Part shown: in pieces, positions 16,342-17,457 of the stretch
Position numbering within the stretch: the stretch's first letter is position 1
Layout of the letters: every line of letters begins with the position of its first letter
Assembly (NCBI GenBank): GCA_046881885.1
Contig: JBKSMP010000008.1
Coordinates: 1 to 32,000 of the forward strand
Length of the DNA: 32,000 bases
Origin: Opitutales bacterium
GTDB lineage: Bacteria > Verrucomicrobiota > Verrucomicrobiia > Opitutales > UBA9783
Direction of reading: 5' to 3'
Translations under genes and position numbers: made by a program
The notes under the pieces: model-generated
What the model was told of the DNA's origin: nothing
Database searches by the model: none
The model's input: the letters and a program-made list of their open reading frames with translations, nothing else

Positions 16342-17457
16342 ATGGAAGATCTACCGCTTTTGCAGAAAAGTTTTCGTCGCTTTGGAATCCTGCCAGTTTA
16401 TGAGGATAAAAACACGCTTTTTTGCCAAATGCGCCCTTCGTTTTCTTCGGAAACACAACGCTATGTACATTATCTTTCTCAGATTTATGGCAAATTAATC
16501 GACATTGAAATCGTTGACGAAAACCATTTTAAAGAAAGCATTCAAAGCTTCAAAGGAGCTGTACCCCTGATCCAGAAAGAGGTAAAAATAGATATTCCGC
16601 ATCAATTGGCACAATTAATTTTTACCGCGTATCAACAAAACTGTTCCGATATCCATTTCGAAGCTCATCGATCAAAATGTATCGTTCGTGTACGCAAAAA
16701 AGGTCAATTGTCGGTTTTACAAGAATTGAGTGTGGAGAATCAACAATTGCTTTTTAATCTGATCAAGTTGAAGGCAGAAATTGACATGACAGATTCGCGA
16801 CGTCCACATGATGGCCAATTTGATATGCAACTACCGAATACGATTGTCAATTGTCGCGTTTCAACCTTACCTTGCTTACATGGAGAAACTATCGTCATTC
16901 GGCTGCTAAGAAATACAGATTATTACACCCCAGAAAATTTAGGTTTAGACAAAACGGATTTTTTTCAAACTTTGTGTAAAAATCTAAATGGATTGTGGTT
17001 AATCACAGGACCTATTGGAAATGGGAAAACGACAACGTATTACAGCATTTTAAGGCATTTTAAGCAACTGCGTGTAGTAAGCCTAGAAGATCCTATCGAA
17101 GTCCCTTCGAATGATTTTGTTCAACTTACCTTACAAGCAGATTTGCCACCAGATAAGTTTGTTCGAAACCTATTGAGGCAAAGTGTGTGTATTGTCGGCA
17201 TAGGCGAAATACGGGATACACAACATCTCAAAATGGCAGTTAATGCGGCCTTGACGGGCCACTGCGTATTAGCAACTTTGCATGCAAATTCGTTAGCAAG
17301 CGTAATGCAACGTTTAGAAAATTTAGGTTACGATCGTGCCCAACAAACACAGTTTTTAAGTGGCATTCTTTTTCAATCTTGGGCAAAAACATCGGAACGT
17401 ATGGTCGTTTTTGAGGATAAAGTTTTTGCTAATTCGAGGATTGTAGGAAAACTTTAA
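16342..17457 (+). CDS. Short PilB/GspE-family secretion ATPase (ATPase 1), C-terminally truncated relative to canonical members
   Basis: 371 aa. It has a T2SSE_N-like N-terminus (FRRFGILPVYEDKNTLFCQM..) and an RRPHDGQF motif. Core motifs: Walker A GPIGNGKTTT, Asp box SLEDPIEV, Walker B IVGIGEIRD, His box TGHCVLATLHAN. It ends 56 aa after the His box, with no cysteine in that tail. Confidence 0.85.
   Translation: MEDLPLLQKSFRRFGILPVYEDKNTLFCQMRPSFSSETQRYVHYLSQIYGKLIDIEIVDENHFKESIQSFKGAVPLIQKEVKIDIPHQLAQLIFTAYQQNCSDIHFEAHRSKCIVRVRKKGQLSVLQELSVENQQLLFNLIKLKAEIDMTDSRRPHDGQFDMQLPNTIVNCRVSTLPCLHGETIVIRLLRNTDYYTPENLGLDKTDFFQTLCKNLNGLWLITGPIGNGKTTTYYSILRHFKQLRVVSLEDPIEVPSNDFVQLTLQADLPPDKFVRNLLRQSVCIVGIGEIRDTQHLKMAVNAALTGHCVLATLHANSLASVMQRLENLGYDRAQQTQFLSGILFQSWAKTSERMVVFEDKVFANSRIVGKL

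What the first reader, a model, noticed from the sequence alone, without database searches (positions are those of the whole stretch)
16342..17457. Both secretion ATPases stop just after the His box and share a QSW motif, suggesting a distinct short subfamily and possibly a heteromeric pair
Seen in sequence:
- ATPase 1 (371 aa) ends 56 aa after TGHCVLATLHAN. ATPase 2 (20874..22001, about 375 aa) ends about 60 aa after SGYLVVATLHAQ.
- Neither tail has the CxxC...CxxC cluster. Both replace the usual ..aQRL.. segment with QSW (ILFQSWAK and QIHQSWDM).
- ATPase 1 has an atypical but intact Walker A, GPIGNGKT. ATPase 2 has Tyr in place of the first His-box histidine.

Established knowledge: GspE/PilB proteins carry roughly 100 or more residues after the His box, including a tetracysteine Zn-binding subdomain. 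PilT-type proteins also have a longer C-terminal region.

Inference: two complementary, slightly degenerate paralogues flanking one secretin could form mixed hexamers or act as an extension/retraction-like pair.
Basis: partly seen in the sequence, partly recalled or inferred. Interest (0 to 1): 0.65.

Follow-up and report, generated by a model that had tools for sequence, protein, structure and literature searches.

The report
Two minimal pilus-motor ATPases in Opitutales
Two genes flanking an outer-membrane secretin in a gut Opitutales bacterium encode real, probably active pilus/secretion motor ATPases that have lost the zinc-binding tail usually considered a hallmark of such motors; this is an unusual variant of a well-known enzyme family, and nothing here shows that the two form a mixed ring.

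Summary
ATPase 1 (16342-17457, 371 aa) ends 55 aa after its His box and ATPase 2 ends 58 aa after its own. Neither tail has a CxxC pair. Both carry Q-S-W where GspE/PilB have Q-R-L, and ATPase 2 has Tyr in place of the first His-box histidine.

The truncations are not assembly errors. Each protein heads its own family of about 50 sequence clusters, found only in gut, rumen and termite Opitutales/Puniceicoccales MAGs, and all members are short.

There are two old paralogous families (about 32% identity), not one subfamily:
- Family A1 is a reduced offshoot of a PilB lineage. Its nearest relatives are full length, keep the zinc domain and are paired with PilT. Its Puniceicoccales members keep a vestigial CxxC-x5-CxxC knuckle.
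- Family A2 groups weakly with ComGA-like ATPases.

All catalytic residues are invariant in both families, and AlphaFold models end in the beta-hairpin that flanks the zinc domain in GspE. The two genes flank a secretin only in the window's close relatives and are unlinked elsewhere.

The most likely reading is two separate homohexameric extension-type motors. A heteromeric or extension/retraction pair is untested and has little support. I class this as a new variant of a known kind, of moderate interest.

The parts
16342..17457 (+). ATPase 1 (family A1), 371 aa. A minimal PilB/GspE-class type IV filament ATPase: short N1-like domain, N2 domain and RecA-like core, ending in a beta-hairpin. No zinc (CM) or C2 subdomain.
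   Evidence: Pfam T2SSE 199 bits over aa 87-346. NCBIfam best hits are ComGA 210 and GspE-PRK10436 208, both below cutoff. PDB best hit is EpsE. AF2 pLDDT is 84.8, with last strands at 339-347 and 355-361. Foldseek top hits are GspE, PilF and PilB.
17008..17031 (+). ATPase 1 Walker A, GPIGNGKT.
   Evidence: The form GPIG[NHST]GKTT is conserved across the A1 family, and G226, G228, K229, T230 and T231 are invariant. It fits GxxxxGK[ST].
17254..17289 (+). ATPase 1 His box, TGHCVLATLHAN.
   Evidence: G306, H307, C308, T312 and H314 are invariant. T305, H307 and H314 map to T411, H413 and H420 of G. metallireducens PilB (PMC5424180).
17374..17382 (+). ATPase 1 QSW, in the strand that reads QRL in GspE/PilB.
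   Evidence: Q345 is invariant. Trp is present in every A1 member that lacks the Cys knuckle; the five knuckle-bearing A1 members have Leu.
17454..18875 (-). 473-aa protein of unknown family with one N-terminal hydrophobic segment. It lies downstream of, and overlaps, the secretin gene. It is a likely secretin-associated periplasmic component (inference).
   Evidence: No Pfam or NCBIfam hit. It is conserved next to the secretin in L001, L008 and L009 at 45-74% identity.
18820..20523 (-). Secretin, 567 aa.
   Evidence: Pfam Secretin 120 bits. NCBIfam best hit is the Amuc_1098 family type IV pilus outer membrane protein at 254 bits (cutoff 750), then GspD at 132 bits.
20657..20902 (+). Small zinc-ribbon protein (Pfam Zn_ribbon_8), 81 aa. 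Its 3' end overlaps the ATPase 2 start by 83 nt.
   Evidence: Pfam Zn_ribbon_8 52 bits. The overlapping pair is conserved in L001, L006, L008, L009, L091 and L092.
20820..22001 (+). ATPase 2 (family A2), probably 393 aa. It is a minimal T2SSE ATPase with the same overall architecture as ATPase 1.
   Evidence: Pfam T2SSE 202 bits. NCBIfam ComGA 221 bits (cutoff 300), then GspE 188. AF2 pLDDT is 83.9, with last strands at 340-347 and 358-363 in 20874 numbering. N-terminal conservation supports the 20820 start.
21789..21824 (+). ATPase 2 His box, SGYLVVATLHAQ, with Tyr in place of the first His.
   Evidence: The A2 family has Y (a few members F, L or N) at this position, while the second His is invariant. 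The position is His in 283 of 283 other T2SSE hits.
21909..21917 (+). ATPase 2 QSW.
   Evidence: IHQxW is conserved in most A2 members; the five longest, most divergent A2 members (three named Puniceicoccales) have HQ(V/T)L.

Best explanation
Both ORFs are intact genes for minimal PilB/GspE-class motor ATPases of the type IV filament superfamily, in an uncultured gut-associated Opitutales bacterium (Verrucomicrobiota).

They belong to two old paralogous families, A1 and A2, which occur together across the Opitutales/Puniceicoccales gut clade. Each family lacks the zinc-binding CM subdomain and the C2 helical subdomain that normally follow the His box; the record of a stepwise loss exists only for A1. 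What remains is a short N1-like domain, the N2 domain and the RecA-like core. The two beta-strands that flank CM in GspE are joined by a short turn, and the protein ends there.

A1 is a reduced derivative of a PilB lineage. Its full-length relatives keep CM and C2 and sit next to PilT. Puniceicoccales A1 is an intermediate with a CxxC-x5-CxxC knuckle.

All residues needed to bind and hydrolyse ATP are invariant in both families. Each protein is therefore expected to be an active homohexamer that drives pilin or pseudopilin polymerisation through a GspF/PilC-type platform, with the fibre or substrate passing the adjacent secretin.

Shown: gene integrity, family-wide truncation, retained catalytic motifs, the reduction series, and variable synteny. 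Inferred: homohexamer state, extension role, and which pilins and platform each motor serves.
For: Family-wide short form: A1 has about 53 clusters of 338-382 aa and A2 about 46 clusters of 364-427 aa.

Taxon range: uncultured Opitutales, Puniceicoccales and Verrucomicrobia MAGs from gut, rumen and termite. The window matches L008 at 96% and L009 at 90%.

Tail lengths and Cys motifs are given.

Reduction series:
- P0312 (492 aa, with CM and C2, overlapped by a PilT gene) is sister to A1 at 98% bootstrap. P0055 (466 aa, Puniceicoccales, same PilB-PilT layout) resembles it by BLAST only.
- Puniceicoccales A1 has FQRL followed by CPYCxxxxxCxxC.

Catalytic residues invariant in both families:
- Walker A Lys, both Asp-box Glu and the Walker B Glu.
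- R172 and R187 in A1, R167 and R182 in A2. These correspond to PilB R271 and R286 (mapping, with PMC5424180).
- The second His-box His.

First-His substitution is tolerated in PilT: H222A is reduced but functional, whereas H229A is dead (PMC10187167).

Structure: AF2 models have pLDDT 84.8 and 83.9 and end in a beta-hairpin. Foldseek ranks GspE, PilF and PilB (E about 1e-29) above PilT (about 1e-20).

Family scores: the NCBIfam PilT model scores only 113 and 135 bits against a cutoff of 319.

Other machine parts near relatives:
- A pilin-like gene, a T2SSF gene and a 920-aa gene sit beside A1 in L011.
- A T2SSG and N_methyl pseudopilin cluster lies downstream of A2 in L001.
- A T2SSF gene lies about 8 kb from A2 in L007.
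Against: No experiment exists, and no complete genome inventory was possible. I do not know how many platform proteins, pilin sets or PilT genes the window's organism has.

Zinc coordination and the CM domain are essential in EpsE (PMC5061722). Activity without CM is therefore an inference from conservation, not a demonstration.

The Arg of PQDGR (PilB R257) and the QRLxR Arg (PilB R455) make open-interface contacts in PilB. Both are replaced in both families, so ring dynamics may differ from PilB.

The first-His to Tyr change in A2 is without parallel among 283 relatives. A2 could be a slower or regulatory subunit.

The phylogeny is neighbour-joining only, and the branches are long.
Confidence: 0.7

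Rival explanations
1. A1 and A2 are obligate partners on one machine. They either form a mixed hexamer or act as alternating motors, for example A1 for extension and A2 as a substitute for PilT-type retraction, or A2 as a regulator.
For: Both families are inherited together across the clade and lie on the same contigs in at least six lineages.

In the window's lineage they flank the single secretin.

Both paralogues changed Leu to Trp at the same strand position, and both lost the equivalents of PilB R257 and R455.

A2's first-His loss resembles PilT H222A, which alters the motor's residence on the machine.
Against: The genes are unlinked in all more distant genomes examined (L002/L006, L004, L007, L011/L091, L092).

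A2 is not PilT-like: PilT model 135 bits against ComGA 221, no AIRNLIRE-type C-terminus, and it branches inside the extension-type ATPases.

Puniceicoccales already carry a canonical PilB-PilT gene pair.

The homologues with solved or tested oligomeric state are homohexamers (PMC6821130, PMC5424180).

Both proteins keep a full catalytic set, which gives no complementary-degeneracy signature.
Confidence: 0.12
2. Both, or at least A2, are ComGA orthologues, meaning motors of a competence (DNA-uptake) pseudopilus. On this view the short tail is simply the ancestral ComGA state.
For: ComGA is the top NCBIfam model for both proteins (210 and 221 bits), with a 33-bit margin for A2.

By neighbour-joining, A2 groups with ComGA-like ATPases at 78% and A1+A2+ComGA-like at 98% in the smaller data set.

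ComGA-like proteins also lack the CxxC pairs and the PQDGR Arg.
Against: Scores are below the 300-bit cutoff. For A1 the margin over the GspE model is 1.6 bits, and Puniceicoccales A1 scores higher on GspE (239) than on ComGA (206).

The ComGA model stops at the QRL strand, so it says nothing about tails.

The ComGA-like tails in the comparison set are about 10-40 aa longer.

Once P0312 and P0313 are added, the three-way grouping drops to 30%.

A1 demonstrably descends from a CM-bearing ancestor.

The context is diderm, with a secretin and no comG operon. Long-branch attraction is likely.
Confidence: 0.13
3. The short ORFs are artefacts, meaning frameshift, assembly error or decaying pseudogenes.
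For: None beyond the unusual length. One A2 homologue (P0163) does look frameshifted at its 3' end.
Against: The same stop positions recur in dozens of independent assemblies down to 37% identity.

Catalytic residues are invariant, which indicates purifying selection.

The A1 stop abuts a convergent gene, and no CM/C2 remnant is present in any frame.

The AF2 models are confident.
Confidence: 0.01

Closest known systems
GspE/PilB 'pilus assembly' ATPases (EpsE, PulE, PilB, PilF)
   Same: - Pfam T2SSE core with Walker A, Asp box, atypical Walker B and His box.
- Both arginine fingers retained.
- N2 domain plus CTD fold.
- Best sequence and fold matches in the PDB.
- A1's nearest relative in the tree is a full-length member of this kind sitting next to PilT; a similar Puniceicoccales protein (P0055) has the same layout.
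   Different: - The CM tetracysteine zinc subdomain (CXXCX21-40CXXC, a subfamily hallmark that is essential in EpsE; PMC5061722) and the C2 subdomain are missing.
- The tail is 55-58 aa instead of 150-176 aa.
- The equivalents of PilB R257 and R455 are replaced.
- QRL has become QSW.
- A2 lacks the first His-box His.
ComGA (competence pilus ATPase of monoderms)
   Same: - Small size and no tetracysteine motif.
- The PQDGR Arg is replaced.
- Highest NCBIfam score for both proteins.
- Weak to moderate neighbour-joining affinity, strongest for A2.
   Different: - Scores are below the equivalog cutoff.
- The ComGA-like proteins examined lack the N1-like domain and have a 66-97 aa tail, with the post-hairpin helices kept in most.
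- They sit in comGA-GB-GC operons of monoderms, whereas here the host is a diderm and the genes are scattered and next to a secretin.
PilT/PilU retraction ATPases
   Same: No CM domain, a similar overall size, and the same core fold.
   Different: - Low PilT-model scores (113 and 135 against a cutoff of 319).
- The tail is far shorter than in the PilT-like proteins examined (about 120 aa in L055), and the ISNLIRE(R/K)K signature seen in the PilT genes of L095 and L096 is absent.
- Both proteins branch with the extension-type ATPases.
XpsE of Xanthomonas/Xylella and the engineered EpsE delta-CM
   Same: XpsE is a natural T2SS ATPase without the conserved tetracysteine. EpsE delta-CM joins the two flanking beta-strands, which is what the AF2 models show here (PMC5061722).
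   Different: EpsE delta-CM is non-functional. Here the CM-less state is conserved across a whole clade, and C2 is gone as well. I did not examine XpsE sequences, so how much of their C-terminal region is retained was not checked here.

Membership tests
Type II/IV secretion system ATPase superfamily (Pfam T2SSE, PF00437) | Match above the gathering score, with Walker A, Asp box, atypical Walker B (GE) and His box. | tested here: met
   199 and 202 bits against a cutoff of 24.9. Motifs located.
GspE/PilB assembly-ATPase subfamily | C-terminal metal-binding CM domain with a CXXCX21-40CXXC tetracysteine motif (PMC5061722). | tested here: not met
   No CxxC after the His box in either protein or in most members of either family. 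Puniceicoccales A1 has only CxxC-x5-CxxC.
GspE/PilB assembly-ATPase subfamily | NCBIfam equivalog scores for GspE (TIGR02533, 630) or PilB (TIGR02538, 676). | tested here: not met
   180 and 183 bits on GspE; 175 and 163 bits on PilB.
GspE/PilB assembly-ATPase subfamily | Two arginine fingers, the catalytic Glu, the Asp-box Glu and the gamma-phosphate His (PilB R271, R286, E357, H420). | tested here: met
   Invariant in both family alignments. Mapped to PilB numbering with PMC5424180.
GspE/PilB assembly-ATPase subfamily | N-terminal N1 domain (T2SSE_N/MshEN, PF05157). | tested here: inconclusive
   No Pfam hit. However, NCBIfam PRK10436 aligns from residue 40 of A1 and residue 7 of P0046, and the AF2 model shows a folded alpha/beta domain at aa 8-69.
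ComGA | NCBIfam NF041000 equivalog score of at least 300. | tested here: not met
   209.6 and 220.9 bits. Even operon-verified Erysipelotrichaceae ComGA-like proteins reach only 267-284.
ComGA | Encoded in a comG operon with ComGB and ComGC-GG pilins in a monoderm. | tested here: not met
   No platform or prepilin gene in the window. The neighbour is a secretin and the host is a diderm verrucomicrobium.
ComGA | Phylogenetic placement inside the ComGA clade. | tested here: inconclusive
   Neighbour-joining gives A2 with ComGA-like at 78%, and A1 separate with P0312/P0313 at 98%. The branches are long and no maximum-likelihood tree was possible.
PilT/PilU | TIGR01420 score of at least 319 and a C-terminal AIRNLIRE-type helix. 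| tested here: not met
   113 and 135 bits. Both proteins end about 55-58 aa after the His box, whereas the PilT-like proteins examined have a tail of about 120 aa that includes the ISNLIRE(R/K)K motif.
TadA/CpaF (the name PGAP gives to relatives) | A TadA-family model match. | tested here: not met
   TIGR03819 scores 31 and 37 bits against a cutoff of 373. The name on the Puniceicoccales homologues is a generic mis-assignment.

The most novel reading that the evidence does not exclude
A1 and A2 have co-adapted as partners on one secretin-linked machine, either as a mixed ring or as two motors docking in turn on the same platform. The following would then be signatures of a shared, re-engineered subunit interface in a motor that works without the zinc domain:
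- the parallel Leu-to-Trp change in both paralogues;
- their shared loss of the PilB R257 and R455 open-interface arginines;
- the near-unique loss of the first His-box histidine in A2.

A further speculative variant is that the small zinc-ribbon protein whose gene overlaps the A2 start supplies a zinc module in trans.
Probability: 0.1. Interest if true: 0.7.

Novelty: new variant of a known kind. Interest (0 to 1): 0.35.

Why it matters
The zinc-binding CM domain is treated as a hallmark of type II secretion and type IV pilus assembly ATPases, and it is essential in EpsE. Here a natural series inside one bacterial clade runs from full CM, through a 13-residue Cys knuckle, to a bare beta-hairpin, and the C2 subdomain is lost as well. 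Every catalytic residue stays fixed throughout.

This gives a ready-made comparative system for asking what CM and C2 actually do (stability, platform docking or regulation). It also defines about the smallest N1-N2-CTD extension-type motor seen in this analysis.

It also corrects database names. Relatives are labelled 'TadA', and the best model hit, ComGA, is misleading.

The finding does not change the general picture of how these motors work.

Tried and rejected
1. NCBIfam ComGA alignment. The match to model positions 2-263 of 267 first looked like proof of equivalent C-termini. I rejected this because the model ends at the QRL strand even in 329-aa ComGA-like proteins.

2. Fused ATPases as evidence for a mixed ring. 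The profile search returned about 1000-aa proteins scoring above single PilBs (P0298-P0311). I considered them as fusion ('Rosetta-stone') evidence for an A1+A2 ring. In the four tandem-duplicated sequences I read (P0298, P0299, P0300, P0302; P0304 has a different N-terminal half) each ATPase module is a canonical full-length PilB with its own CM motif and TGH His box, and the score is simply the sum of two domains. This says nothing about A1 and A2.

3. Counting platform proteins. I spent the last homology search on the T2SSF next to A1 in L011. Only 11 hits came back, because the word-index search has low sensitivity for this divergent family, so the count was not obtained. It did show a pilin-like gene plus a T2SSF gene at a separate locus in the MAG of L009.

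4. PilT, T2SSF, GspG, CM/C2 remnants and prepilin motifs. I searched the window and 26 related loci. There is nothing in the window beyond the two ATPases and the secretin.

5. PQDGR Arg as an arginine finger. I first took it for one. Mapping to PilB numbering showed it is R257, an open-interface salt bridge, and that the true fingers R271 and R286 are conserved.

6. Literature. Searches for prior descriptions (ComGA with tetracysteine; Opitutales or Verrucomicrobia pilus ATPases) found nothing specific.

7. Failed scripts. An L-INS-i alignment and Biopython distance bootstraps were killed or timed out. I replaced them with MAFFT --auto and a vectorised Kimura-distance neighbour-joining tree.
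Full report
**What is in the window**

The window has about 36% G+C. The region of interest reads as follows:
- rpsT (minus strand, 15873-16196).
- ATPase 1 (plus strand, 16342-17457, 371 aa).
- A 473-aa protein without any family match (minus strand, 17454-18875).
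- A secretin (minus strand, 18820-20523). Its best NCBIfam hit is the Amuc_1098 family type IV pilus outer membrane protein, far below cutoff.
- An 81-aa zinc-ribbon protein (plus strand, 20657-20902).
- ATPase 2 (plus strand, ORF 20787-22001).
- A double NUDIX protein (22009-23247).

Upstream lies an F1Fo ATP synthase operon, and the rest is housekeeping and sugar-nucleotide metabolism. The window contains no platform (GspF/PilC) gene, no prepilin and no PilT gene.

**Checking the observation**

All sequence statements hold.
- ATPase 1 has Walker A GPIGNGKT and His box TGHCVLATLHAN, followed by 55 residues. QSW sits at aa 345-347.
- ATPase 2 has GATGSGKT and SGYLVVATLHAQ, followed by 58 residues, and also has QSW.
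- Neither tail has a CxxC pair.

Tail lengths after the last His-box His in a comparison set built from related loci:
- 150-176 aa with two CxxC in PilB/GspE-type proteins.
- 66-97 aa without CxxC in Erysipelotrichaceae ComGA-like proteins that sit in comGA-GB-GC operons.
- 63-65 aa with two CxxC in Puniceicoccales homologues of ATPase 1.
- 44-57 aa without CxxC in Opitutales homologues.

One correction concerns the start of ATPase 2. The N-terminal MK(R/Q)I..IL(R/Q) segment is conserved in homologues, and tblastn aligns from residue 1 when the ATG at 20820 is used. ATPase 2 is therefore most likely 393 aa and overlaps the zinc-ribbon gene by 83 nt.

**The truncation is not an artefact**

ATPase 1 retrieves about 53 clusters of 338-382 aa at 37-97% identity. 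Beyond these, the hits are almost all 540-590 aa PilB proteins. ATPase 2 retrieves its own set of about 46 clusters of 364-427 aa at 43-99% identity. The A1 stop overlaps a convergent gene by 4 nt. C-terminal probes from GspE, PilB, P0312 and ComGA-like proteins find nothing in any frame of the window.

**Where the families occur**

One genome per species was scanned. The window matches uncultured Opitutales MAGs at 96% and 90% (L008, L009). The A1 family is confined to about 19 Opitutales, Puniceicoccales and 'Verrucomicrobia' MAGs from human gut, rumen, horse faeces and termite gut (names). PGAP labels the relatives 'TadA', which the models do not support.

**Two families, not one**

ATPase 1 and ATPase 2 are about 32% identical over the core. 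In neighbour-joining trees of the shared N2+CTD columns, each family is monophyletic at 98-100% bootstrap.

In the first tree, A1, A2 and the ComGA-like group clustered at 98%. A profile search of 1.8 billion representatives then recovered two closer relatives of A1:
- P0312, 492 aa, which shares A1's signatures GLWLISGP, LRQSADVIGIGEIRD and AGHCV but has a complete Cys motif and a C2 tail.
- P0313, 384 aa, which is short.

With these added, P0312+P0313 is sister to A1 at 98%. The three-way grouping with ComGA falls to 30%, and A2 with ComGA-like stays at 78%.

P0312 is followed by a bona fide PilT gene that overlaps it. A Puniceicoccales protein, P0055 (466 aa, GPIGSGK Walker A, full CM), has the same PilB-PilT layout.

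Puniceicoccales A1 members read FQRL and then CPYCxxxxxCxxC, and end about 12 residues later. In the first tree they are the basal branch of A1.

The simplest history for A1 is therefore a PilB paralogue that lost C2, shrank CM to a 13-residue knuckle, and then lost the knuckle in the Opitutales branch. A2 has no Cys motif in any member.

**What is kept and what is changed**

I mapped residues onto G. metallireducens PilB, using the chain numbering and residue roles from PMC5424180.

| PilB residue or motif | Role or location | A1 | A2 |
|---|---|---|---|
| Walker A Lys, both Asp-box Glu, Walker B Glu | ATP binding and hydrolysis | invariant | invariant |
| R271, R286 | arginine fingers | R172, R187 invariant | R167, R182 invariant |
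| H420 | contacts the gamma-phosphate | H314 invariant | invariant |
| R257 (PQDGR) | salt bridge to the Asp box in the open interface | Gln | His |
| R455 (QRLxR) | contacts T411 of the neighbouring packing unit in the open interface | not conserved | not conserved |
| Leu of QRL | strand preceding CM | Trp in every member without the knuckle, Leu in the five with it | Trp in most members, Leu in the five most divergent ones |
| H413 | packs T411 together with H420 | H307 invariant | Tyr (rarely F, L or N) |

A2 residue numbers count from the 20874 start. The invariant positions come, and the changed positions.

H413 is His in 283 of 283 other hits. In P. aeruginosa PilT, the first-His mutant H222A is slower but functional, whereas the second-His mutant H229A is dead (PMC10187167). 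Both proteins therefore look catalytically competent, but their open-state subunit contacts are likely altered.

**Structure**

AlphaFold2 models built with the family alignments are confident (pLDDT 84.8 and 83.9). Both show a small N-terminal alpha/beta domain, the N2 domain and the RecA-like core. Both then end in a beta-hairpin (A1 strands 339-347 and 355-361). These are the two strands that flank CM in GspE, joined by a short loop, which is the design of the non-functional EpsE delta-CM construct (PMC5061722). Foldseek ranks GspE, PilF and PilB (E about 1e-29) ahead of PilT (about 1e-20).

**Gene neighbourhood**

The order ATPase 1, unknown protein, secretin, zinc-ribbon, ATPase 2, NUDIX is found only in the window, L001, L008 and L009, where A1 identity is at least 73%. 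In more distant genomes:
- A1 stays beside rpsT and a SurA-like gene but is followed by flagellin genes or other genes (L002, L010, L012, L013).
- A2 lies elsewhere on the same contig (L006, L091), preceded by the overlapping zinc-ribbon gene and followed by a 180-190 aa protein of unknown function.
- In Puniceicoccales both genes stand alone.

Other machine parts are scattered:
- A pilin-like gene, a T2SSF gene and a 920-aa gene are convergent with A1 in L011.
- A pilin-like gene and a T2SSF gene lie at a separate locus in the MAG of L009.
- A T2SSG and pseudopilin cluster lies downstream of A2 in L001.

The flanking of one secretin is thus a recent, lineage-specific arrangement.

**Interpretation**

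The best-supported reading is two independent, active, homohexameric extension-type motors of type IV filament machines that have undergone reductive evolution of their C-termini.

The heteromer or extension/retraction idea is not excluded. The points in its favour are co-inheritance, the parallel Leu-to-Trp change and the shared loss of the open-interface arginines. It lacks positive support for four reasons:
- The two genes are not consistently linked.
- A2 is not PilT-like.
- A canonical PilB-PilT pair exists in Puniceicoccales.
- The characterised homologues are homohexamers.

The ComGA label is a resemblance rather than membership. Scores are below cutoff, the model stops before the tail, the ComGA-like tails examined are longer, and the genomic context is that of a diderm.

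**Limits**

- The trees are distance-based, with long branches.
- No complete genome could be inventoried.
- No multimer prediction or experiment was possible.
- The literature searches cover open-access papers only.

Noticed in passing
window 20657-20902 (+), overlapping 20820-22001: An 81-aa zinc-ribbon gene (Pfam Zn_ribbon_8; CxxC...CxxC plus a conserved C-terminal CxxC...CPHK[AS] tail) overlaps the ATPase 2 start by about 80 nt in a different frame. Both frames are conserved in seven loci, down to about 46% ATPase 2 identity. It is absent upstream of the one Puniceicoccales A2 locus examined (L007).
   Followed up: partly
P0298-P0311 (not in the window): Proteins of about 1000 aa. Four of the five I read (P0298, P0299, P0300, P0302) are two complete PilB-type ATPase modules in tandem, each with its own Walker A, His box and tetracysteine motif. 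Natural fused double motors would form pseudo-heteromeric rings. Their taxonomy is unknown.
   Followed up: partly
window 17454-18875 (-): A 473-aa protein with one N-terminal hydrophobic segment and no Pfam or NCBIfam match. It lies immediately downstream of, and overlaps, the secretin gene. It evolves fast (45-74% identity where the secretin is 77-96%). It is a possible secretin-linked periplasmic or inner-membrane connector.
   Followed up: partly
L095 1254-3840 and L096 3953-6330: The full-length relatives of ATPase 1 (P0312, P0055) are each followed by a PilT gene that overlaps the stop by about 16 nt. This is a tightly coupled PilB-PilT pair. P0055 shares the unusual GPIG Walker A of the A1 family.
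   Followed up: yes
window 22009-23247 (+): A 412-aa protein made of two NUDIX domains, with an N-terminal hydrophobic segment. It lies directly after ATPase 2 and is conserved there in L001, L008 and L009, and nearby in L010.
   Followed up: no
window 9799-10188 (+): The ATP synthase delta (OSCP) subunit is only 129 aa and matches only the last third of the Pfam model (positions 116-172 of 172). The same short form (130 aa) is present in L001.
   Followed up: no
L002 11172-13005, L003, L092 17983-18777: Flagellin genes lie next to the ATPase 1 or ATPase 2 homologues in some gut Opitutales MAGs, so these lineages appear to be flagellated.
   Followed up: no
P0338 (303 aa), P0381 (392 aa), P0313 (384 aa): A few unrelated T2SSE representatives also have tails of 55-65 aa without Cys, and P0338 even reads QHW at the QRL position. 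Extreme C-terminal reduction has therefore arisen more than once.
   Followed up: partly
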